Below are positions 7,991 through 58,217 of a stretch of 64,000 nt of DNA, one piece after another. The stretch covers positions 12,400,001-12,464,000 of the forward strand of contig NC_087436.1 of NCBI RefSeq assembly GCF_036321535.1, given 5' to 3'. The stretch comes from Camelus dromedarius. Its lineage: Eukaryota. Numbering within the stretch: the stretch's first letter is position 1; every line of letters starts with the position of its first letter. The translations under genes and the position numbers were made by a program. The notes under the pieces were generated by a model, which did not search any database, was not told where the DNA came from, and was given only the letters and a program-made list of their open reading frames with translations.

Positions 7991-9399
7991 TATTTTAAAG
8001 TCAGCTAATGTATGGTAAATAAGAAATACCATGCAAGTAGTATTTTATGAAACAAGCAAATACAATGTATTACTAAATGAAAATTGTCTTGACTTTTAAA
8101 TGAAAATTTCCATTGCTGGATACTTTATTGCTTTTTTCGAATGACTTTTAGTCACTGCTCACTCTGGTAGTGATAATTATTACTAAGTCTTTTATTTGTT
8201 CTCACTTTTCATATCACAAAACTTTCTCCTCAATTCACTTTCTTTCTTAGTGTAGTGCATCCTTTTAGATTTCTTACCAAAAACATTTATGTATGATATA
8301 CATACTTAATAGTTTGTTTAGGATATTGTAAAAGATTTAGATCCCAAACTACATTTTAAAATAATACATCATGACTAAATAGGACTTAGTCTAGAGAAGT
8401 TCTACATCAAAAAGTTATATCAATGTGATTCACCAAATTGAATAAAAGGGAAAAAATCTACACAATCATTTCAATATATGCTGTCTATCTATTTCTATAT
8501 CTATTTGCCATTTTGCTAGATTGTCAGCCATTAACATTGCCTTACTATATCCTCTCCTAAGATCAATTTTGCATAGCAGGTACGAGGAACATCATTTTCT
8601 AGAATCTCCTTCCCCATTGCTTCAGGCTAGAATTTGCCAATAAGAAGACCTTGCGTATGTGGAAAGTGACTGGAGGAAAAGTTTTCATTCCAGGAAGCTT
8701 GTGGCAGCCAGACACCATGGTTTCACAGATTTCTCTACAAGTTCCTACTTGGCTGCTACAGAACAAGACAGAAAAGACCTTGGCTTTTACCAGAGACTTG
8801 AAAATTCCTGAACTTTTCTGACAAATGTGGGAGACTGAGAGACTCACTTGTTCAGGGCTTCAGACTGAAGTCATCAGAGACCCCCTGACCTTCTAGTGAA
8901 GCTCTTTCCAATCTTCACCCACTCAGCTCTTTATACATTCATAGGTGTTCTATTGTCTTAAAAACATCTTTATTACAATAATATTTAGAATAATTCCATT
9001 TTACTGACCAAACCAAGAATGATAAAAATGATGTAACAATTATAAAAATATGGGTAGATGTAAATGTTCTTTCACTCATAAAAGCTACCTACAAAATTTA
9101 TAAATACATTTCAACAAATGGATAAATTTAAATACATTCATTTTAATATCAGAAATAAGATAATGATGCCCATTATCACTGCTACTGTTGAGCAGAACTG
9201 GCCAGGAAATTAAATGACTAACAAAGATTAGAGGAGAAGAAGTAAAGTATTCATTACTTGTAATGCTATAAACATTCACATTAAAAAGGATGATCAACAA
9301 GTAATACCAAATGATAAAAGTACTATGCTATATTTAAGGATAAAAAATAATAGTCTTCCTTTATACTATCAATAACAAATTATAAAATATAATTAAATA

Positions 9400-10930
9400 C
9401 AAAAGACCCCAAGTTATCAAAGCAATCATGAGAAAAAAGAACAAAATTGGAGGTATCATGCTCCCTGACTTGAGAATATACTGCAAAGCTACAGAAATCA
9501 GAACAGCACAATACCAGCACAAAAACAGACACATAGATCAATGGAACAGAAAAGAGCCCAGAAATAAACCCACACCTTGTGGTCAATTAATCTATTACAA
9601 AGGAGGTAAGAATATACAATGGAGAAAAGACAGTCTCTTCAATTGGAGGTGCTGGGAAAACCGGACAGCTACAAGTGAAAGAATGAGATGAGAACATTTC
9701 CTCACACCATATACAAAAATAAACTCAAAATGGATAAAAGACCTAAGTGTAAGACCTGAAACCATAAAACTCCTAGAAGAGAACATAGGCAGAACACTTT
9801 TTGACATAAATCGCAGCAATAGTTCTTTAGATCTGTCTCTTAAAGCAAAAGGAATAAAAGCAAAAAGAAACAAATGGAACCTAATTAAACTAAAAAGCCT
9901 TTGCACAACAAAAGAAATCATCAACAAAAAGAAAAGACAACCTACTGAATGGGAAAATATTTGCAAATGATATAACAGACAGGGAATTAATATTCAAAAT
10001 ACATAAGCAGCTGATACAACTCATTATCAGAAAAATAAACAACCCAATCAAAAAATGGGCAGAAGACCTGAATAGACATTTTTCCAAAAAAGACATATGG
10101 TAACTAATAGGCACATGAAAAGACGCTCAGAATTGTTAATAATTAGAGAAATGCAAATCAAAACAACAGTACCACCTCACACCTGTCAGAAGGACTATCA
10201 TCAAAAGTCTATAAATAACAAATGTTGGAGAGGATGTTGAGAAAAGGGAACCCTTGTTCACTGTTAGTGGGAAGGTAAATTGATGCAGCCACTGTGGAAA
10301 ACAGTATGGAAGTACCTCAAAACACTGAAACTAGAACTAGCATATTTCTCAATAATTCCACTCCTGTGTATACATGCAAAGAAAACAAAAACAGCAATTT
10401 GAAAAGACGCATGCACCCCAATGTTCATAGAGGCATTATTTACTATTGCTAAAATACGAAAGCAATCTAAGTGCCCATCAACAGATGAATGGATTAAGAA
10501 GATGTGATATACATATATATAATGAAATATTACTCAGCCTCAAAATCAATAAAAATTTTGCCATTTGCAAAAGTGAAATAAGTCAGGGAAAGAAAAATGT
10601 TATGTTATCACTGATACGTGGAATATAAGAAATAAGATGAATGTATATAACAAAACAGAAACAGACTCACAGATACAGAGAAGAAAATAGTTAACCAGTT
10701 GTGTGGGGTGACAGAGGAGTATGGGATTAAGAGACACAAACTACTTTGTGTAAAATAAAAAAGCAACAAGGATATACTATACAGCACAGGAAAATACAGA
10801 CATTTTTTGTAATAATTTTAAATAGAGTATAATCTATAAAAACATAGAACCACTTATGTTGAACACTTTAATAACTAGTATAATACTGTAAATCAACCAT
10901 ACTTCAATAAATTTTTTAAAGAAATAAAAA
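9400..10930 (+). mobile_element. L1 3' portion (ORF2 end and 3'UTR) nested in older L1 ORF2 remnants (8340-8480, 9100-9390)
   Basis: ORF2 peptides GGIMLPDLRIYCKA..RHIDQWN and KDSLFNWRCWEN. L1 3'UTR and A-rich tail at ~10905-10930. Confidence 0.9.
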
Positions 10931-10985
10931 TCTCAAATAAACAACCTAACAAATATTATATAATTTAAAATAATATACCACTTTA

Positions 10986-13900
10986 GGTGTGGCGGGGGCC
11001 AGAGTTCGCTGCACGTCGATGGAAAGTTTGGCGGCGCGGCTGCCCCGAAGTTCAGAGTGACGACACGTCCACGTGCACCTGCCCTGAGCAGCAAGGCCTC
11101 CCCGGCGTCCCTGTCGTGGGCAGAAGGGCCCGCTGCTCGTCTGTGGACCCCTCGCAGTTGGCAGGCTCCCGCAGACGCGGGGTCTAGGCCTCCGCCCCAC
11201 CGCGTCCAGCCTGGGCAGCGGCCTCCAGGACACAGGCGGCAGAAGCAGCAGCAACGCCAGAGGCTGCAGTGGCGGCTGCGGCGGGAAGGCGGGAGTGGCA
11301 GGCAAGAGTGCAGCCGCCTCCGTAGCAGACGATGCCCCCACCTACCCAGCGTCGGAACAAGAGCGGCATCATCAGCGAACCCCTCAACAAGCGCCTGCGC
11401 CGCCCCCGCCCTCTCGCCCACAGCTCTTCCCTTGGGGGCAGTGGCGCTGGCAGCATGATGGGCGGGGAGTCTGCTGCAAAGGCTGCTGCGGCTGCAGCCG
11501 CTGCCTCCCTGTTGGCCAGTGGGCACGACCTGGCGGCGGACAAAAGCACGAACGTGGTGCTGTGGCCAGCCTGCTGGGCAAGGCAGAGCGGGCCGCGGAG
11601 CTGGCAGCCGAGGGACAGCTGACGCTGCGGCAGTTCGCGCAGTGCACGGAGATGCTGAAGCGCGTGGTGCAGGCGCGCCGACCGCGGGTGAGCGAGGCGG
11701 GCGCCCGGCCTGCCCGACATGGAGGCTTGGCGGGTGCCGAAGCCCTCAACTGGCCAGTCCGACTTCCCCTACCTGGGCGCCTTCCCCATCAGCCCAGGCG
11801 TCTTCATCATGACCTCGGCGGGCGTGTTCCTGGCTGAGAGCGCGCTGCACATGGCTGGCCTGGCCGGGTACCCCATGCAGGGAGAGCTGGCCTCCGCCGC
11901 CATCAGCTCCGCCGGGAAGAAGCGGAAACGCTGCGGCCTGTGTGCGCCCTGCCCGCGGCGCATCGGCTGCGAGCAGTGCAGCAGTTGTAAGAACCGAAAA
12001 GCTAGCCATCAGATTTGCAAATTGAGGAAATGTGAGGAACTCAAGCCTTCTGCTGCGCTGGAGGTAACTTACACGCCTTAGAGGGAGGTGTGTGGGCTCT
12101 TGCGCCTGTCCGGCAGTCCAAACCCACTCCTGCCCAGATCCACACCTTTCCTGCCTGGGCGAGTGTCTGTGGGATGCCCAGCCCATCCCTGGGCTCTAGG
12201 GTTTTAGGGCAGGCTCCAAGACACCGCTTCACTGCCCCACAAGTCAGAGCCACATCCTCAGATAGATGCCCGTTGGTTGTTTTGAGCTTAGGCAAGCATG
12301 AAATTCCAGGCAGGGGCCTAGCATTCTCTCCAAGCCCCCGGATTCTGAACCCCTCCTGGAGTTTTGGGTCAGGGATTGAGATTCCCACAGAGGTACTAAG
12401 TCTCTGACTTTCAGACATGTCCTAACGCTTCCAGTCCGTGACCCAAGATTCCGGGACTCTCCTCTGCCCCATTTGAGGGGTTCTGTCTGGTGGACCCTGT
12501 GGCTTTGAGGGGTAAGCCCTTCATTTGCCCTTTCAGAGACCAACTTTTCCCCCTGAGGCCACCCAAGGATAGAGCAGCTCCAGTGCTGACTGCTCTGCTC
12601 TGAGGCCTGGAAGAACCCTAGCTCTAGGCACCTAGTTAACAAATTTGGGGTGCCTTGGGACCCTAAGACCAGTCTGGCTGCATACTTAATGGCCAGGGGT
12701 CCTGTGGACGGGGCTGGGACCAGGGGATGGCTTGAGCCTGGAGTACAGGCAAGCCTTGGCCACTGTGGGATTGGCTTTGAGAAGGCAGAAGGGTTCCCAT
12801 GCTGTTTTCTCGCCACCCTTGTAGCAGGGCCTGTCCCATGCCCTCAGCCATAACACCTTGCTTTGGTGTCAGGCCTGGGTACAAAAGCAACTTTTCAGCC
12901 TGCTGACCCTGCCCTGTCCCCGCCCCTCTGAGAAAAGGGCTTGATGCAAATGTACAGAATGGCTGTAAAACAATGGCACCCCAGCCGTGGCTGTCCCCTA
13001 CCCCAAGCCCCAGCATGCATCTGCCCTCCTGTCCAGAGAACACACTTGTGTGCACACAAAGGCGCCTGCTCTCATCTAGTGTAGAGACAGTTACACACAC
13101 GCACACACACACACATACATCATGCCCAGTACCCAGTCTTATTACAGGCGCAGCTCTTAATAGACACCGCAAGCATCCTTCCTTCCTAGCACAGCTCCAA
13201 ACACGCTAATCACTGTAGCACAGCTCAAGGCACACACCTTGTATGTGTCCAGTGCACACGTGTACACGTACTCATTTGACAGAAACGTGACCGTAACTCT
13301 CAGATGCACCACAGGCACCTGGCGCTTGTGGCCTTTGGACCGGGGAAAGGAGTCTTCCTGTCTGGAAGGAGTGTTCCTGGGCACAGTGGCTCAGGAGGCC
13401 TCTGGGTGCTCCGGGCCCTCCAGTGGCCCAGCGGGTCAGGCTTCTCCTCTGGCCTGGCCAGGATGGCAGGAACTCCACGGGGTGGCCTCTGTTACTCCAT
13501 GCCCATCCCTCCATCGTGAGGCCATCCATGGGGTGAACATCTTTAACCAGGCCCAGCCAGACCCTGGGTGAACTCTCTCCTTGTTTTTGTCTCCTGTTCC
13601 TGCCAGAAGGTGATGCTTCCGATGGGAGCCTCCTTCCGGTGGTTTTAGTGATTGTGGCGGGAACCCAAAGCTGCCCTCTCTGTGCAATGTCACTGCTAGT
13701 GTGGCCTCTGGCAAGGGATTCAAGCAAAAACAAATGGATGCACTGTCTTTAGAACCAAAAATATTCTCTCGCAGATTTCATTCCTGTTTTTACATATATA
13801 TAGTTGTTGTTGTCATTTTAACATCTCCACGTCTCTAGTATAAAAAGAAAAAGAAAAAAATAATTAACTGATTTTTTGGAAGAACAACAAAAAAAGAGGT

Positions 13901-14627
13901 ACAGACGAATCTATAAAGTACTAAGACTTCCTGGGCAAAAAATGTACAATCAGTTTTCTTCCTGCGTCAGTGTCAACGTTGTCTGTGCAGAAGATGCAGT
14001 TTTTGTGTAGAAAATGTAAATTTTCTGTAACCTTTTGAAATCTAGTTGCTAATAAGCACTACTGTAATTTAGCACAGTTTAACCCCACCCTCATTTAAAC
14101 TGCCTTTGATTCTTTTCGACCATGAAATGGTGCATAGTTTGCCTGGAGGATCCACTCATGTTTATAGAGAAAGTTGATGGCGCCCTGTCAGCCCCTGGGT
14201 ACCCATCCACTCGTGCGGCGCTGCCCCGAGGAGCTCGCAGAGCGGGAGGGAGCAGCCCACCCACCCCCCGGGGCCCAGGCCTACCGTGCTGCACCCTCGG
14301 TCCCCAGAATGGGATCCCCCACCCCAACAGTGATGATTTTGTGTAAACGAAGGAAAGTTCTGTTCATTTATACATTGAGATCTGGGGAGCCCATGTCTCG
14401 ATATTTCTGAGCCTGGTTAATTCCCTTAGAGAAAATAAGGCCCTTTTTTCTGGCCTTTGCTGATGGCAACAGAAGAAGGGGCTTCTGTGCCTGGCCCGCT
14501 GCAGGTGGGGGTAGGTGCCGGGTTGGGGGCCTTGCCCATGGCCAGCTTCTCACTGCTGAACATGCTGTTTGTATTGTTTTAGGAAAGCAGGCTGTTTTGT
14601 GAATACAACAAATGCACGTTTGTGTCA
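10986..14627 (+). pseudogene. CXXC5: CXXC5 retrocopy (semi-processed pseudogene) with retained last intron
   Basis: CXXC5 peptides spread over two frames ([52 protein letters not shown] finger..PSAALE). Start codon position reads GCG at 11202. Frameshifts near 11336, 11546, 11706, 11728 and 11751. Last exon KVMLPMGASFRWF* at 13607-13648, then 3'UTR with a degenerate polyA signal AATACA at 14602. TSD aatataccacttta (10972-10985) / aatatatcacttta (14633-14646). Confidence 0.93.
12064..13606 (+). other. Retained CXXC5 intron inside the retrocopy (1543 bp)
   Basis: GAG|GTAACT directly after the AALE codons, and polypyrimidine tract ...ctcctgttcctgccAG|AAG directly before the KVMLP codons. Confidence 0.9.
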
Positions 14628-16025
14628 AGAAAAATATATCACTTTAAATAGCAAAACCCCACCCTCCAAAAATTAAGAAATAATTGAAGAAGAGTGTCAT
14701 TTAAATAGCATTGCATCCCATGGGATAACAATAAATACACTGGTATCTGGATCAGTCTCCTGGCTGTCCACCACCTGGCCTTGAAGTCAGTGACACATAT
14801 TCCGAAATTATGAATAATTGGCTTCTAGGTACGACTACAGCAGCAAAAAACTCCGAAATTCTCATTGTCTTATAGCAGCAAATATTTATTATTTGATCAT
14901 ATTATATGAGGGCTTGAGTCGACTGTAGCTCTTCTGGGCAATGCTCAACTCCACATGCCTCCTTGTTTCAAGTCTCTGGCTGAAGGACAGCCCCTGAGAT
15001 CCCCTTTCTCATGGCAGAGGGCAGAAACTGAGGAAGGCAGAACTAAAGTGCAAAAGTTCATTTAAAGTTTCTGCTTGGACGTTATTTGGATCCCATCCAC
15101 TCACATCCCATTAGCCAAGCCAAGTTGATAGGAAGTGTATATAATCTACCTGCAGGAAGGCAGAGCAAATGCAGGGAAGGAAAAATTGAATGGGCACCAA
15201 AGGCACAACTGATGTAAATAAAACAATAAGCACCTTGTCTAGAATATAAGACACATTCCATAGCTTTAGCTCTTACTTTCATTTTATTTTGTTGAATTAT
15301 CACACAGTCCTGAGAAATATCTTATTACAAGAAAATGATGATTCAGGGTAACCAAGTATCTTGTTTAAGGTTTTGTAATGGCAGCACTAGAACTTACAGC
15401 CAGGGATCCAGTCACCACAGAAAATGAATTTTCCACAATCACACAAGGTGATTATATGGAAACTGATCACAGAATTGACAGTGTCCTGTGAGAAAAATTC
15501 CAGTTCCCAACTGGAAAAGCTCTGGTAGCTTAATCAAGCTCCATTTGGTGAATTTTCTGTAGACTACTGTTCATTCCAAGCCTATAAGTCTATCCTTCAA
15601 GAATACTTTTCTCATTCTTTTCTATGACTCTAGCAGAAAATTTAACAAATAATTAATGAAGCCTTTCTGCTACGTGGAAAGCGTGGGGGAATAAATTCAT
15701 CAGCTGGCACTTTTGACCAGAATGTAGTTTCCTATTTCATTTTTCATAGCAGGACAATTTTTTACTGATTTGTTAAGTCAACCATTATCTGCTTGATAGT
15801 AGTGTTCTCATGTTAAAATAACAAACTAACATTTTGTTTTAAAATGTTTATCAAGCTTGAGAGTATGCTTAGAGTGAATTTGTTTTCTGGGGCTTGTTCC
15901 TATCAGATCCTGATAAAATCTAGATTATGGGTAAGCAAACAAATGACACAAACATATAACGTCCCAACTTCATGCCCTTCTACTCCAGTAGCGTTCTAAC
16001 TTTGCAGGGTCTCACGAAGCCTAAG

Positions 16026-31714: not shown

Positions 31715-34700
31715 TTGTTGCCTGTGCTTTTGGTGTCATATCCAAGAAACTGTTGTCTAGAGCAATGTTATGAGATTTCCCCCTGTGTTTTCTTCTGTGT
31801 TTTCACGCTTGCGAAATATCAGTTGATCTTGTATGCAGGGGTTTATTTCTGGCCTCTATATTCTGTTCCATTGGTTTATATGTCTGTCTTCATGCCAATA
31901 CCATGCTGTTATAATTACTGTAACTTTGTAATATATTTTGAAATCAGGAAGTGTGATATGTCTCCAGCTTTGTTCTTCTTTCTCAAGATTGTTTTGGCTG
32001 TTTGGCGTCCTTTGTGTTTCTATATGAATTTTAGAATTGTTCTTTCTATTACTGTAAAAAGCGCTATTGTGATTTGGATAGGAACTGCATTGAATGTATA
32101 GATCAAACACTTTCAGTAGTATGGGCATTTTAAGAAACCATGAGCATAAGATATGCTTGCATTTATTTGTGTCTTCTTTAATTTGTTTTATTATTTATTT
32201 GTAGTTTTTAGTGTACAGTTGTTTTACCTCCTCAATTAAGTTTACTTCTAAGTATTTCATTCTTTGTAATTTTTTTCAGTTAATTCCAAATCCGTATTTA
32301 TTAATAAGCAAGTAATAAATGTACACATCTGGAATGTGTAACTACTGAAACAAGTTTAAATCTGATTCTTTTTTTTAACATTTTTTATTGATTTATAATC
32401 ATTTTACAATGTTGTGTCAAATTCCAGTGTAGAGCACAGTTTTTCAGTTATATGTGAACATATACACACTCACTGTCACATTTTTTTCTCTGTGAGCTAC
32501 CATAAGATCTTGTGTATATCTCCCTGTGATATACAGTATAATATTGTTTATCTAGTCTACAATTTTAAAATCCCGTCTATCCCTTCCCACCCTCCATCCC
32601 CTTGGCAACCACAAGTTTGTATTCTATGTCTATGGGTCTATTTCTGTTTTGTATTTATGCTTTGTTTTTTTGTTTTTGTTTTTGTTTTTTAGATTCCACA
32701 TATGAGCGATCTCATATGGTATTTTTCTTTCTCTTTCTGGCTTACTTCACTTAGAATGACATTCTCCAGGAGCATCCATGTTGCTGCAAATGGTGTTATG
32801 TTGTCAGTTTTTATGGCTGAATAGTATTCCATTGCATAAATATACTACCACTTCTTTATCCAGCCATCTGTTGATGGACATTTAGGCTGTTTCCATGTCT
32901 TGGCTACTGTAAATAATGCTGCTATGAACATTGGGGTGCAGGTGTCATCCTGAAGTAGGGTTCCTTCTGGATACAAGCCCAGGAGCAGGATTCCTGGGTC
33001 ATACAGTAGGTCTATTCCTAGTCTTTTGAGGAATCTCCATACTGTTTTCCACAGTGGCTGCACCAAACTGCATTCCCACCAGCAGTGTAGGAGGGTTCCC
33101 CTTTCTCCACAGCCTCTCCAGCATTTGTCACTTGTGGATTTTTGAATGATGGCCATTCTGACTGGTGTGAGGTGATACCTCATTGTAGTTTTGATTTGCA
33201 TTTCTCTAATAATTAGTGATATTAAGCATTTTTTCATGTGCCTATTGATCATTCGTATATCTTCCTTGGAGAATTGCTTTTTCAGGTCTTTTGCCCATTT
33301 TTGGATTGGGTTGTTTGGTTGTTTCTTATTAAGTCATATGAGCTGCTTATATATTCTGGAGATCAAGCCTTCGTCGGTTTCATTTGCAAAGATTTTCTCT
33401 CATTCCGTAGGTTGTCTTTTTGTTTTACTTATGGTTTCCCTTGCTGTGCAGAAGCTTATAAGTTTCATTAGGTCCCATTTGTTTATTCTTGCTTTTATTT
33501 CTTCTAGGAGAGAATTTTTGAGATGTATGTCAGATAATGTTTTGCCTATATTCCTATATTTTCCTCTAGGAGGTTTATTGTATCTTGTCTTATGTTTAAG
33601 TCTTTGATCCATTTTGAGTTTATTTTTGTATATGGTGATAAGGGAGTGTTCTAGCTTCATTGTTTTACATGCTGCTGTCCAGTTTTCCCAACACCATTTG
33701 CTGAAGAGGCTGTCTTTATTCCATTGTATATTCTTGACTCCTTTGTTGAAGATGAGTTGACCAAAAGTTTGTGGCTTCATTTCTGGGCTCTCTACTCTGT
33801 TCCATTGGTCCATATGTCTGTTTTTGTACCAATACCATGCTGTCTTGATGACTGTAGCTCTATAGTATTGTCTGAAGTCTGGGAGAGTTATTCCTCCAGC
33901 CTCTTTCTTTCTCTTCAGTGATGCTTTGACAATTCTAGGTCTTTGATGGTTCCATATAAATTTTATTATGATTTGTTCTAGTTCTGTGAAATATGTCCTG
34001 GGTAATTTGATAGGGATTGCATTAAATCTGTAGGTTGCCTTGGGCAGTGTGACCATTTTAACAATTTTGATTCTTCCAATCCAAGAGCATGGGATAGCTT
34101 TCCATTTTTTAAAGTCTTCTTTAATTTCCCTCATCAATGGTTTATACTTTTCTGTGTATAATTCTTTCACCTCCTTGGTTAGATTTATTCCTAGGTATTT
34201 TGTTACTTTGGGTGCTATTTTGTATTCTTTGTAATGTTATTTTAAAAGAGAGAGTTTTCTTAGTTTCCTTTTCACATAATCCATTGTTAGCATACAGAAA
34301 CACAGCTGATTTTTGTATGTCAATTTTGTATTCTGCAGCTTTACTGAATATGTCTATTAGTTCCAACAATTGTTTGTGTGTGTGTGTATGTATGGAGTCT
34401 GTTGGATCCAGCAATTCCACTTCTGGGTATTTATCCAAAATATTTGAAATCAGGATCTCAAAGAGATATTTGCACTGTCATGTTCATTGCAGCACTATTC
34501 ACAATAGCCAAAATGCAGAAACAACCTAAATGATTATTCAGCTTTAAAAAAGAAGGAAATCCTGCAATATGCAACAACATGGTGAACCTAGAAGACATTA
34601 TGCTAAATGAAATGTCAGTCATTGAAGAACAAGTGCTATATAATTCCACTTAAATGAGGCATCTAATATACAGTTGAACTCATAGAAGCAGAGGGTAGAA

Positions 34701-50076: not shown

Positions 50077-51225
50077 TTAAACGTTGGTAGCCTCTGTGAA
50101 AGAGTCACTGGGGCCATTGTTCTTTGTGACTTCCAGGTTCTTTTTAGCCTTGAATGTCACGGACACCTCAGAGTGAATGGCGTCCATCCTTTGCTCACAG
50201 CGGAAGGCTGAGAGGAAAGCCTTTCTGTAGTTGCTGTTCATCCAGCCATAGAGAAGAGGGTTGGCAAAGGTGGAGCACATGGCGATGATGTGGAACACGG
50301 TGAAGATAAGTTTGTACTCCTTCAGGTCCAGGACTTGGTTGTCAATGTCCACAGCAAGTTGGAAAGCATGGAGAGGCAACCAGCTGACCGCAAACACCAC
50401 CACCACACACACCAGCATTTTGGTGGTTTTTTGCCTCCGCTGATGATAGTGGTCGTTGGCAGCTCCAGGGCTGACATGGTTCCTAAGTTTACTCCAGATA
50501 CGAGTGTAGGAGAAAGAGATGATGCCCAGAGGTAGGACATACAGAATCAATAAGGAGGAGAGACTGTAGACAGTGCCATAGACGCTCTTGTCCTCACCAG
50601 GCCACTTCTCCGTGCAGGCCACAATCTCAAAGTCAGGAATGATCTCAATCAGTGAGTACTCCCGGAAGATGGCCAGGGGGCTTGCTAGCAAGGCACTGAC
50701 ACCCCAAGCCAGGCCAATAATCAAGAAGCTGATTCGCTTGGAGATCTTGCTCTCCAGGTGGTAGACGATGCAACGATGCCTGTCCAGGGCAATTACCGTC
50801 AAGGTGACGGTGGACACTTGTACCGCCAGGCCCTGGGCATAGGGCACCAAGTGGCATAGGACAGGACCCATTTTCCACTCCCCCATTAAGGTGTAGGTAA
50901 GCGTAAATGGCAGGCAGAGGGTATTCACCAGAAGATCGGCCACAGCCAGGTTGGCGATAAAAAAGTTGGTTACTGTGCGCATGCTCTTAAATTTGATCAC
51001 CACGTGGATCACCAAGGAATTGCCAATCACCCCAAGCAAGATGATGGAGCAATAGGCCAATATAAGTACGATCTGTACCTCGATCAGCTTGGTGCTGTCT
51101 ATGAGCTCGGGCTCAGAGTCGGGGGCCAGCTCACCTCTAGGAGTGGTGTGCCCTGGACCAGACTGCTCCACCTTCGTTTCTTCCACCGTCTGGTTCTCAT
51201 CAGCCTCTGCACCTAATGGGCCCAT
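50077..51225 (-). CDS. NPY2R: Neuropeptide Y receptor type 2 (class A GPCR), 382 aa, single coding exon
   Basis: Intact ORF MGPLGAEADENQTVEE...SFTEATNV with seven hydrophobic segments, GNSLV (TM1), LAVAD (TM2), the Y2-type DRH motif, WLPLH (TM6) and NPLLY (TM7). The ATG at 51225 has context GAAAATGG. The ORF-track start at 51234 is a non-ATG extension. Confidence 0.98.
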   Translation of the reverse strand: MGPLGAEADENQTVEETKVEQSGPGHTTPRGELAPDSEPELIDSTKLIEVQIVLILAYCSIILLGVIGNSLVIHVVIKFKSMRTVTNFFIANLAVADLLVNTLCLPFTLTYTLMGEWKMGPVLCHLVPYAQGLAVQVSTVTLTVIALDRHRCIVYHLESKISKRISFLIIGLAWGVSALLASPLAIFREYSLIEIIPDFEIVACTEKWPGEDKSVYGTVYSLSSLLILYVLPLGIISFSYTRIWSKLRNHVSPGAANDHYHQRRQKTTKMLVCVVVVFAVSWLPLHAFQLAVDIDNQVLDLKEYKLIFTVFHIIAMCSTFANPLLYGWMNSNYRKAFLSAFRCEQRMDAIHSEVSVTFKAKKNLEVTKNNGPSDSFTEATNV

Positions 51226-52223
51226 TTTCAGCAACTAGCACAAGAATCTACAATTTAAAAAATGAACAAATGTGGAACAAGGGAAACACAAGGGTGAAAG
51301 GATTATTACAAATGGGTTGGTTTCATTTTGGTTGGGGCTCAAAGTACCTGTCCTCTGATCCCTACAACTGCACATAGTGGAACATTTCAATAAAGCGGAC
51401 ACCTTAATAAGTCTGCTCACGAATGTGCATAGATTAAATCAGGTCTTTGAAATATATATTATGAAGACAAAATCTTAGACCTATAGTATAGACATAATTT
51501 CGATGTGAGTGCTACCAAATGATTCAATGCATTTTAAGCGAGATGGATATTAGAAACTTAATTAAATTAATTTTATAACTGCTATAAATTCATCAAATTA
51601 ATTTTAAGGTTGATAAAGAAAATTATCTTCAATATTTTGACTGTTTTAAATTCATAAATATAGCAACAAATTGCATGAAAAAGAGACATATTAAAACCCT
51701 TTGCTTGGTGCCTGGACTTTAGTAGAAAAATTTAAGATAAACTGAGCAGATTCGGTTTCGTAGCCATTTTTCCTAGTGGATGGGTTAGTGTTAGAAATAG
51801 ATAGCCTGTGTAAAAATAGCTTCTTTTTTTGGGGATCTGAAATAAACTTCCTACCTGACACAGCAGAATTCTACACAGGAACCACAGGAAAATATGTCCA
51901 ATCTGAATTCCGTCTCTCTCTAACCCCTAAGTACAAAAGTTTTAACACATTTCTTCCCCAATCGCTCCCCTCACCCTCAGAATGTCCCTTCTGTGTGCCC
52001 CATTCAGTCAACACTATCCCCCCTTAATTAAGCCACATAAAGCTAAGAAGCAGGTAACCATGCTAGGCATTTTCATCTCCTTTAGTTCTCACATTTAAGA
52101 GAACCCTCAGGCTGGTCTCTTGCATATTTTTCCCAATGGTCCTTTTATTTCTATCACATTTATTCTGGCTGCCTTGATTTTTTACCATAATTACTCTAAT
52201 AGTCATCTAACCTTCTTCTCCCA

Positions 52224-55748: not shown

Positions 55749-56850
55749 TGACCCGGCCCTCGCGTTTCTGCTGAGACGTGGAAGCCAGATGTGTGCCGCG
55801 CGCGGGTCACTCTGATGATTACCTAGCCGCCGGCTCGGAGAGGGCACTGGAAGGTCCCCACAGGCCGACCTAGTGCCTTCGGCTCGGCAGCGGGTGCAGG
55901 GCAGCCAGCGCGCGCGGGAGAGCAGGAGAGCGCGGCGTCCTCCCGGCGGTCGGAACGGCGGGGAGGCTGGTGCCGCTGGGATCCGCCGCCCACCTCCGCC
56001 GCCAAGCGCGCGGACACCGCACCGCCCCGCGCGGCGCGCCCGGGGGTGGGAGCGGGGAGAGATGGGAGGCTCCGGAGGAGTGGAGGCGAACCTCCCTCGA
56101 AAAGGAAAACAAATAAACAAACAAAGAACAGGTGCAGGGAGTGGGGGGCAAGGGCCCCGCAGCAGAGAGCGGGCGGGGAAGTTTCCGTGCGAGGGCGCGG
56201 GGGACAGCGTCCAGGTCTCCGCCCGGAGAGCCTGGAACGCGGGCAGCGGGACCCCGCCCAGCGCCGCCTCGCGGGTCCGCACGGTCACCTGCTATTGCTT
56301 CTCCCCCTGATGTCCACTGGCCACCTCCAAGTTTGATACTCTGGGCGTTCCCAGCACTCTTACCTCCTCTCCCCTCCACCAACCCCTCCCTTTGCTCTCG
56401 GCTCCTCAGTTCCGCGAGAGATGGTCCAACGAGCCTGCGAGGACAGCCTGCCCCCCCACCCCACCCCAGGCTCGGGCCGAGCTAGCACATCAGCCCAAGA
56501 GAGGCCAGGGCGAGGGTGAAGGCCGCCAGGCAGACAGTCCCAGCTGCGAGCGACGGGGCTGCTGTTCCCAGTGCGAGTGCTGCGGACCTGAGGACACCTT
56601 GAGCTGGCACGAGGCGGGCCTGGGAAGCAGAAGCCCCGCGATTTGGCGGGGCTGGGAAACCCCAGAACTCCAGCCAGGAGCTGCTGCTTTTTTGTTTGCA
56701 AAAGCAAAGATGGGGAGCTGGACCCGCGCACAACCACGGAGAAGCGCCCCACACGATTGCCCGCGGAGGACCAACCCTCGGCCAGGGAGTGCGGGGCGCT
56801 GGTAAAACTCTAACTAGGCGGTTGTCGCGCTCCAATGAGAAGGTAAAGCG
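55749..56850 (-). promoter_or_regulatory. NPY2R: CpG island covering the NPY2R promoter and non-coding exon 1
   Basis: Sharp rise in GC and CpG density (e.g. cgcgcgcggg, gcggcgcgcc) with GC boxes. The sequence before the donor resembles the end of human exon 1 as recalled. The TSS cannot be placed from sequence alone. Confidence 0.85.
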
Positions 56851-58087
56851 ACTTCGGATCCTTGTTGCCCACCATCAGCAATTTCCTGAACAGGTGTCTG
56901 TTGACAGTTTACAAGTTACGTATTGCGCAGGTTCAAAAGCCAGCAGCCCCATATGGTGTGCTCCCACTGGGGCAAAAGCTAGAATAGGAAAAGGAAAACA
57001 ACGGGTCACCAAAAGAAAACAAAACACACACTCACAAAACAAAAACCAAAACAAATTATCTTTTTCTCCACTTAGCTGACTTCCCAATCCTTCGCTCTTT
57101 GGTCCTGACCCAAACCACTCTTGCCACGATGCGCGCGTGCCTCCGGAATCCTTTCGCCTGTCTCCTCCTAGCGATGCCCTCTCCTAATGCCTGGAGCCCG
57201 CCAGGCTGAGTTAGTGCATCAGAGGAAAACAGGACTGTGGAGTCAGTCAAAAAAGCTGCGAGGTCTGTTTCCTCGGTATTCCTCCCAGAAACTCTTATTT
57301 CAGAGCCATTCAGTCTCTCTTTCCCTTCTTCATTTTCAGAGGGGGCAGCAGAGCCTACCAAGCTGGGAAAACAAAAGCCTGAAACTGGAAACCAAAGCTT
57401 TTCCTCAAATGTCATGTGCTAGAGCTTAGCACACATTACTTTCTTCTATGCATCAGTCTCTTCATTTCTGTAATGAGGATGTTCACGCTGCTTCACTTGA
57501 AATTTCTCTGAAACACAAAAAAAGACTAAGCTACTCAAAAAATACTCTCCAAAACATTAAGTCGTCTTCTCAAAAGCATTGAGTTTTCAACCAATGGGGA
57601 CTTGTCCACACCTAACAGTATTGCATATGTAAGGCAACTTTACTTGGTCTAATTTGAAGTTGATCTGGTTAATGTAGAATTAAACCCACAAGAGCACATA
57701 GACATCACTGATAAACAAAGCAGCTTGGGTTCTTCAACTGCCAAGAAATAAAAAGTGCACAGAACTAGAAATATTCAAGATGTTCTTCACAGTTTCACTT
57801 AAAATATCTCTGTACATTTTTTACCTTGGAGAAATATTCATTGTTTACACATGTATTTTCTGCAGCAGGTTCCATGATTCTTAATATATTTCCCCCAGCG
57901 AAGAATGAATTATGTGCCAAAGAGTTGTAGCTTTAGGAGAGTAGGAGTGGTTTAAAACAATCACAAAAACAAATATACAGGAAAACAAATGAGTGTTGTC
58001 TTTTAGAGTAATTGCTTTGGAGGATTCAACTGATTTCACTGATATTGACTGCATAGAACAAATTTGCTTCTTGTTAGAACTGTCTTT

Positions 58088-58217
58088 TTTGAAAATTTAT
58101 GTTTTGATTTTTATTTTTAATATTTTTCCATTAACACCCCCCCCCTTAAGGGAGGCACTGAGGATTGAACCCAAGACCTCGTGCACATGCTCTACCACTG
58201 AGCTATGACCCCCACCC
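58088..58217 (-). mobile_element. tRNA-derived SINE (camelid type)
   Basis: Minus strand TAGCTCAGTGGTAGAGC (A box) ... GGTTCAATCC (B box), A-rich tail. TSD agaactgtcttt (58076-58087) / agaacggtcttt (58220-58231). Confidence 0.88.

What the first reader, a model, noticed from the sequence alone, without database searches (positions are those of the whole stretch)
10967..14646. Semi-processed CXXC5 retrocopy that kept its terminal intron
Seen: a 3.6 kb GC-rich insert at an L1-endonuclease-type site (TTT/AAAA at 10964-10970) with a 14-bp TSD (one mismatch), ending ~20 nt after a degenerate polyA signal. It contains a 1543-bp GT..AG intron with both splice sites intact, exactly between PSAALE and KVMLP. 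The 5' end (10986-~11055) is GC/CpG-rich with no polypyrimidine tract, as expected if an upstream non-coding exon was already spliced on. Inference: L1 reverse-transcribed a polyadenylated CXXC5 RNA that retained the last intron. This would be fossil evidence of an intron-retaining isoform in the germline or early embryo; such an isoform keeps the CXXC finger but loses the C-terminal KVMLP..RWFQ tail. Almost no polyA tail remains.
Basis: partly seen in the sequence, partly recalled or inferred. Interest (0 to 1): 0.7.

Follow-up and report, generated by a model that had tools for sequence, protein, structure and literature searches.

The report
Intron-keeping CXXC5 retrocopy in camels
Camels carry a dead, reverse-transcribed copy of the CXXC5 gene made from an RNA whose upstream intron was already removed but whose last intron was not, a rare but known kind of pseudogene, and its main exon has since drifted unusually towards G and C instead of decaying.

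Summary
10986-14632 is a decayed CXXC5 copy (start codon lost, four frameshifts) flanked by a 14-nt duplication, with a 1543-nt GT..AG interval exactly at the parent's last coding junction. The open point, the 5' end, is settled indirectly. A published primer for the first exon of human variants 3/6/7 hits 11010-11029 (3 mismatches, chance 0.00). That exon lies upstream of other cassette exons, yet here it abuts the predicted start of the coding exon. So the template was RNA, upstream introns spliced, last intron kept: a semi-processed L1 retrocopy, present in all three Camelus species. It is not new evidence for the isoform: RefSeq already lists intron read-through 'isoform X2' proteins (ending VTAP) in cattle, buffalo, cats, orangutan and others. 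This fits an unmethylated island turned recombination hotspot (GC-biased gene conversion); edited template RNA is a weaker rival. No parental camel DNA, empty site or RNA reads were examined. New member of a known kind; interest 0.45.

The parts
10964..10970 (+). L1-endonuclease-type site TTT/AAAA; probable true start of the target duplication at 10967
   Evidence: sequence; 19-nt extension matches 16 of 19
10972..10985 (+). left target-site duplication (14 nt)
10986..11042 (+). copy of the alternative first exon shared by human CXXC5 variants 3, 6 and 7; junction to the coding exon at about 11043-11060 (inferred)
   Evidence: primer hit 11010-11029, 3 mismatches, 0 of 100 shuffles; nested primer matches 16 of 19 at 11024-11042 by eye
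11043..12063 (+). copy of CXXC5 exon 10: about 159 nt of 5' UTR, then the broken coding region from 11202; CpG-island-like, with AT>GC-skewed substitutions
11719..12081 (+). residual 120-codon ORF with a zf-CXXC domain (8 Cys kept), ending in the intron read-through VTYTP-stop; on record as a predicted protein
12064..13606 (+). retained last intron of CXXC5, GT..AG, 1543 nt
   Evidence: junction equals the human 924/45 nt split; start matches the VTAP-stop read-through of orthologues
13607..14632 (+). copy of the last exon: 45 coding nt, then 3' UTR; candidate poly(A) hexamer at 14602-14607; at most 3-5 A of tail
   Evidence: human 3' RACE primer hits 14455-14476 with 2 mismatches
14633..14646 (+). 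right target-site duplication (14 nt, one mismatch)
9402..10545 (+). neighbouring 5'-truncated L1 (continues towards the insert); a separate insertion, not inside the duplication
   Evidence: 73.5% identity over 1168 nt to another L1 copy at 32809-33944

Best explanation
A semi-processed L1 retrocopy. In an ancestor of the three Camelus species, L1 machinery nicked an A/T-rich site beside an older L1 tail. It primed on the poly(A) of a CXXC5 RNA that began in the short variant-3-type first exon, had its upstream introns removed and still held its last intron, and copied it almost full length. The tail has since shrunk and the coding frame has broken. Shown: duplication, exon order, intron position, broken frame, presence in three camel species. 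Inferred: L1 as the enzyme, and that the template was the VTAP-ending isoform rather than a transient intermediate. A stop in a retained last intron has no exon junction behind it and so should escape junction-dependent decay (established knowledge, recalled). Second step (inferred, about 0.55): the CpG-rich coding exon is methylated gene body in the human parent. Moved to an intergenic site, it escaped germline methylation, became an orphan CpG island and recombination hotspot, and was rewritten by GC-biased gene conversion.
For: The variant-3/6/7 primer hits 11010-11029; the main exon-3 primer and the cassette-exon primer do not hit. In human the same forward primer is paired with two other upstream exons in variants 6 and 7 (PMC8329181 supplement), so it is not contiguous with exon 10. 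Exon 10 starts about 160 nt before the ATG (primer at +330, residue 57), and 159 nt lie between the nested primer's end and the ATG equivalent. The intron sits at the 924/45 junction. 49 of 254 fetched proteins end ALEVTAP against ALEVTYTP here. The 3' end lies about 155 nt past the 3' RACE primer site, followed by the duplication. The copy's protein and the dromedary parent are recorded on contigs of different length. Skew: AT>GC 32.5 of 486.5 opportunities against GC>AT 5 of 734.5; still p 4e-4 without A>G and G>A; 0 of about 71 CpG transitions; CpG observed/expected 0.68-0.93 over 10960-11960.
Against: No camel parental DNA was aligned, so homology of the intron beyond its first 18 nt and its ends, and the exact 5' junction, are inferred. 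No empty site was seen. Almost no poly(A) tail remains, and the 14-nt duplication does not start at the nick. The skew rests on amino-acid-changing sites only, with parental codons inferred from a protein, and 4 codons next to indels were dropped (with them 33.5 against 7). Gene conversion predicts equal A>G and T>C rates, but A>G is 21 of 146 against T>C 3 of 86 (p 0.011, post hoc; p 0.11 allowing a 1.5-fold transcription asymmetry). Methylation and recombination were not measured.
Confidence: 0.88

Rival explanations
1. DNA-level duplication or DNA capture of the 3' 3.6 kb of the CXXC5 locus.
For: An intact intron and almost no poly(A) tail.
Against: The 5' end matches a separate upstream exon. 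The ends coincide with transcript ends. A target duplication flanks it at an endonuclease-type site.
Confidence: 0.03
2. A fully processed retrocopy that regained the intron later, by ectopic conversion from the parental gene or by a template switch to pre-mRNA during reverse transcription.
For: Two wild-camel gene models read parent-like over about 24 residues where the window and the Bactrian model are frameshifted; this could be parent-to-copy conversion.
Against: Those models may be assembly or annotation corrections. The intron start has itself diverged (VTYTP against VTAP) and both camel read-through models share it. A single retained-intron template is simpler and has precedents.
Confidence: 0.04
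3. On the nature of the template: a polyadenylated splicing intermediate caught before the last intron was removed, not a regulated isoform.
For: One molecule suffices. Human Northern blots show mainly one band of about 2500 nt in two cell lines (PMC8329181). Many VTAP proteins are gene calls on DNA contigs and prove no expression.
Against: At least 10 named RefSeq isoform X2 proteins end VTAP, and the four residues plus stop are identical across primates, rodents, bats, carnivores, pangolin and artiodactyls. The RNA support of those models was not checked.
Confidence: 0.35
4. On the skew: the template RNA was A-to-I edited by ADAR and the edits were fixed as A>G on reverse transcription.
For: A>G is 21 of 146 against T>C 3 of 86 on the sense strand (p 0.011). 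5' neighbours lean the ADAR way (G in 4 of 21 against 39 of 113) but not significantly (p 0.21).
Against: AT>GC excess persists without A>G (p 4e-4). Editing does not explain the missing CpG decay. 3' G is not enriched (6 of 21 against 50 of 113). The longest inverted repeat listed is 29 nt at 72%. The ADAR neighbour preferences are recalled.
Confidence: 0.12
5. The copy is a selected retrogene or regulatory element: the 120-codon CXXC ORF or the CpG island is kept for a function.
For: All 8 cysteines are kept and the last 104 codons have no frameshift. NCBI holds protein models in three camel species.
Against: The three camel models differ from each other at 2-4 of 103 residues, while 7 of 8 placental parents tested are identical to the dromedary parent over the same 105. 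The start codon is lost, and the Dishevelled-binding motif KTxxxI is changed.
Confidence: 0.08

Closest known systems
Semi-processed pseudogenes: rodent preproinsulin I and the TMF1 insertion in human CYBB (Kazazian 2014, PMC4151081, passages)
   Same: L1-type cDNA copy that lost some introns and kept others, inserted away from the parent.
   Different: TMF1 ends at an intronic poly(A) site and has a 100-nt tail. Preproinsulin I is a working gene. This copy keeps the whole last intron and last exon, ends at the apparent normal 3' end, has almost no tail and is broken.
PPP1R26 (KIAA0649) retrocopy in RB1 intron 2, CpG island CpG 85 (Kanber 2009, PMC2791201; Rademacher 2014, PMC4122923; passages)
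   Same: A methylated coding exon of the parent became or stayed a CpG island in a broken retrocopy; CpG 85 is unmethylated in sperm.
   Different: That copy is intronless, intronic and imprinted, and its methylation was measured. Here the site looks intergenic, methylation is untested, and a directional AT>GC excess is counted.
PRDM9-independent hotspots in hypomethylated regions with GC-biased gene conversion (Joseph 2024, PMC11161765, passages)
   Same: High equilibrium GC (0.91 here) over a CpG-island-like stretch.
   Different: The paper treats conserved native loci and does not name camels (0 occurrences). Here the locus is a lineage-specific insertion, and A>G exceeds T>C.
RefSeq CXXC5 isoform X2 (for example Bos taurus XP_024850203.1)
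   Same: Reads from exon 10 into the last intron and stops after VTAP, keeping the CXXC finger and losing the 14-residue tail.
   Different: These are predicted proteins of the living gene. Whether their transcripts keep the whole intron or end inside it was not seen.

Membership tests
L1-made processed pseudogene (definition in PMC4151081) | Sequence limited to the transcribed part of the parent | tested here: met
   5' end matches a first exon, 3' end lies about 155 nt past the 3' RACE primer site; tested with human primers, not camel DNA
L1-made processed pseudogene (definition in PMC4151081) | Lacks all or most introns | tested here: met
   First exon abuts exon 10; cassette-exon primer has no hit. 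The last intron is kept, hence the semi-processed subclass
L1-made processed pseudogene (definition in PMC4151081) | Poly(A) tail at the 3' end | tested here: inconclusive
   Only a 5-A run at 14630-14634, partly inside the duplication
L1-made processed pseudogene (definition in PMC4151081) | Target-site duplication of 5-20 nt | tested here: met
   14 nt with 1 mismatch, or 19 nt with 3
L1-made processed pseudogene (definition in PMC4151081) | Dispersed from the parent, with an empty site in outgroups | tested here: inconclusive
   Copy and parent proteins are on contigs of different length; the neighbour is a 7tm gene (NPY2R by recall). No empty site was examined
Semi-processed pseudogene | Retained interval is the parent's own intron at the parental junction | tested here: met
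   924/45 junction, GT..AG, read-through start matches orthologues; the body of the intron was not aligned
Functional CXXC5 retrogene | Intact parental reading frame | tested here: not met
   Start codon lost, four frameshifting indels, premature stop
GC-biased gene conversion hotspot | Excess of AT>GC over GC>AT substitutions | tested here: met
   32.5 of 486.5 against 5 of 734.5, p 3e-8; amino-acid-changing sites only
GC-biased gene conversion hotspot | Strand symmetry (A>G rate equals T>C rate) | tested here: inconclusive
   21 of 146 against 3 of 86, p 0.011; A>C 5 of 153 against T>G 3.5 of 101.5 is symmetric
GC-biased gene conversion hotspot | Germline hypomethylation and raised recombination | not testable with these tools
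   Only indirect: 0 of about 71 CpG transitions

The most novel reading that the evidence does not exclude
The retrocopy made its own recombination hotspot. A coding exon that is methylated gene body in the parent became an unmethylated orphan CpG island once L1 moved it into AT-rich intergenic DNA. It then drew PRDM9-independent recombination and was rewritten about tenfold towards G and C before the camel species split. The sense-strand A>G surplus may be a further layer, ADAR edits of the intron-holding template frozen into DNA (about 0.12 on its own). Retrocopies of CpG-rich exons would then be dated natural experiments on how new CpG islands and hotspots arise.
Probability: 0.45. Interest if true: 0.65.

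Novelty: new member of a known kind. Interest (0 to 1): 0.45.

Why it matters
Semi-processed retrocopies are uncommon records of which RNAs germline L1 can reach. This one records a minor-promoter CXXC5 RNA with the last intron kept, matching a predicted short isoform whose VTAP-stop end is conserved across placental mammals but was not discussed in the papers read. It also explains camel 'CXXC5-like' protein models as a pseudogene. The larger value is the substitution skew. If confirmed with parental DNA, it is a clean case of an inserted sequence creating a CpG island and gene-conversion hotspot, testable with sperm methylomes and camelid alignments.

Tried and rejected
No whole genome is held for this window, and no reads or contigs were laid on the insert (one search gave no result). 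The parental alignment, the empty site and the source of the RNA matches therefore stay open. A metagenome scan with bovine CXXC5 confirmed 1 of 123 candidate stretches, a distant CXXC locus with no useful DNA likeness. An attempt to show that the two flanks are one older L1 failed: local scores 56 and 33 lay within shuffled ranges (maxima 74 and 51). Sequencing artefact as the cause of the skew was rejected. 14 DNA rows in 7 studies (6 without the possible source study) hold 0.96-0.97 of the words, and a 95-codon 5' frame is identical in a wild-camel model. Co-mobilisation with the upstream L1 (3' transduction) was considered unlikely because the duplication flanks the CXXC5 copy alone. No alpaca or llama protein with the copy's residues appeared among the 120 and 14 proteins listed; this is weak and does not date the insertion. 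Look-ups of earlier findings by sequence and by the first word set returned nothing. A notebook count of 18 VTAP proteins among the first 120 was wrong; one search lists 17.
Full report
Observation. The insert runs from 10986 to 14632 (3647 nt) and is GC-rich against flanks of 31% and 39% GC. A 14-nt duplication with one mismatch flanks it (10972-10985, 14633-14646); nothing else in the window lies within one mismatch of it. The endonuclease-type site TTT/AAAA is at 10964-10970. Read from that nick, the duplication is 19 nt with 16 matches, so the poly(A) remnant is 0-5 nt. The candidate signal AATACA is at 14602. The interval 12064-13606 is 1543 nt, GT..AG, between PSAALE and KVMLP.

Identity. 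The reading frame at 11752-12063 carries Pfam zf-CXXC and is 85% identical to mammalian CXXC5. Against the dromedary parent protein (KAB1281445.1) the copy has lost its start codon and has four frameshifting and several in-frame indels. Models of the copy's residual ORF exist for Bactrian (XP_010966847.1) and wild camel (EPY76558.1) and differ from the window at 2 and 4 of 103 residues. The window is therefore a Camelus genome, probably dromedary (inference). The insertion predates the split of these species (about 4-5 million years, recalled). The copy's own protein and the parent are recorded on contigs of 123.8 and 120.7 Mb. The nearest gene seen is a 7tm receptor at 50080-51234 (NPY2R by recall), not a CXXC5 neighbour (recalled). 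14 DNA rows from 7 studies hold 0.96-0.97 of the stretch's words; one study may be the source.

Is the interval the parent's intron? Human CXXC5 has 924 coding nt in exon 10 and 45 in exon 11 (PMC8329181). Human residue 308 is the E of PSAALE, and 13607-13651 is 45 nt. Orthologous proteins that read into this intron end ALEVTAP: 17 of the first 120 listed and 49 of 254 fetched. The window reads ALEVTYTP. Position, both ends and the first 18 nt match; the body of the intron was not aligned to a parent.

Was an upstream intron removed? The supplement of PMC8329181 lists one forward primer for variants 3, 6 and 7. It is paired with an exon-10 primer for variant 3 and with two other upstream exons for variants 6 and 7. 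That primer's exon is therefore separated from exon 10 in a gene of about 35 kb. It hits the window once, at 11010-11029, with 3 mismatches; 0 of 100 shuffles gave a hit. The primer for the main first exon and the cassette-exon primer give no hit. By eye the nested primer matches 16 of 19 at 11024-11042 and the exon-10 qPCR primer 16 of 22 at 11094-11115. A bisulfite primer ending at +330 of exon 10 falls, by eye, on residue 57, placing the exon start about 160 nt before the ATG; the window has 159 nt from 11043 to the ATG equivalent. The first exon thus abuts exon 10. The 3' RACE primer hits 14455-14476. Without the intron the insert is 2104 nt, near the shortest annotated variant (2163 nt), so the copy may be nearly full length; which variant has that length is not in the text seen. 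The exon map is in figures that are not held.

Mechanism. L1 reverse transcription primed at the nick on a polyadenylated RNA with upstream introns removed and the last intron kept (L1 involvement inferred from the hallmarks). Semi-processed pseudogenes are a described class (PMC4151081; PMC5470649). The intron read-through form is already annotated. At least 10 named isoform X2 proteins, among them cattle, buffalo, cats, orangutan, tarsier, deer mouse, bighorn sheep and star-nosed mole, end VTAP. It keeps the CXXC finger and the Dishevelled-binding residues 284-296 (PMC11730785) and loses 14 residues. Whether the template was that isoform or a splicing intermediate cannot be read from one copy.

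Not dead in the usual way. Of 279 aligned codons (4 next to indels dropped), 42 changed. AT>GC changes number 32.5 of 486.5 opportunities and GC>AT 5 of 734.5, giving an equilibrium GC of 0.91 (p 3e-8); with the dropped codons it is 33.5 against 7. The skew is strongest in 11202-11720 (24 against 2) and weaker behind it (8.5 against 3, p 0.14). It survives removal of A>G and G>A (p 4e-4), and none of about 71 CpG transition opportunities was taken. 18 of 41 uniquely inferred changes now lie in a CpG. CpG observed/expected is 0.68-0.93 over 10960-11960 and mostly below 0.3 in the intron. The three changes in the last exon's coding part are ordinary GC>AT. A 95-codon frame over 10988-11272 is identical in a wild-camel model, so the process there ended before the camel split and is no assembly error. 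In human cells exon 10 is heavily methylated. Hypomethylated regions host PRDM9-independent hotspots with gene conversion in many placentals (PMC11161765). A retrocopy's coding exon became a sperm-unmethylated island in RB1 (PMC2791201; PMC4122923), and expressed retrocopies are enriched in orphan islands (PMC4772013). I infer an orphan island turned hotspot. Against a pure conversion reading, A>G (21 of 146) exceeds T>C (3 of 86; p 0.011, post hoc). ADAR editing of the template would give that, but neighbour tests were not significant (p 0.17-0.23), no long inverted repeat was listed, and editing does not explain the rest. All counts use parental codons inferred from a protein and amino-acid-changing sites only.

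Function. Not a working CXXC5. Seven of 8 placental parents tested are identical to the dromedary parent over 105 residues where the camel copies differ among themselves.

Novelty. Searches for CXXC5 with pseudogene (32 papers, 20 listed) and for camel, retrocopy, CXXC5, NPY2R and camelid (4 papers) showed no title or abstract on this copy. Among 25 papers on retrocopies and CpG islands, none of the 15 listed holds the term GC-biased gene conversion. The library lacks most subscription papers. Papers seen: PMC8329181 abstract, passages, section 10, part 1 of section 4, and supplement text; the other seven as passages only. Verdict: a real semi-processed retrocopy (0.88), a new member of a known kind, with an unexplained AT>GC skew as its most interesting feature. 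Interest 0.45.

Noticed in passing
window 11202-12063: Amino-acid-changing substitutions in the copy run about ten to one towards G/C per opportunity, with no CpG decay and an A>G surplus on the sense strand.
   Followed up: partly
window 12064-12081: The first five codons of the last intron read VTAP-stop identically across many placental orders, more conserved than a donor site alone would need; possibly a real short CXXC5 isoform.
   Followed up: partly
window 13604-13609: The acceptor is a tandem NAGNAG (CAG AAG); three fetched orthologous proteins end ALEVMLP, as expected from use of the second AG.
   Followed up: no
window 11685-11760 against proteins P0169 and P0170: Wild-camel models read parent-like over about 24 residues where the window and the Bactrian model are frameshifted: assembly or annotation correction, or parent-to-copy conversion.
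   Followed up: no
window 11016-11060: A short upstream ORF spans the inferred first-exon/exon-10 junction and stops near 11060.
   Followed up: no
window 50080-51234 (minus): Intact 385-codon 7tm receptor ORF (NPY2R by recall), with a CpG island at about 55800-56900 that is probably its promoter.
   Followed up: no
window 9381-9397 and 10955-10970: Similar A/T-rich words on both sides of the neighbouring L1 may be that element's own target duplication, placing two insertions within about 20 nt of each other.
   Followed up: partly
protein P0040: A rat 'CXXC5-like' model (XP_006257601.3) also ends VTAP and lies on a contig of different length from rat CXXC5; it may be an independent intron-keeping copy.
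   Followed up: no
window 58130-58215 (minus): A tRNA-derived SINE of the camelid type (label recalled).
   Followed up: no
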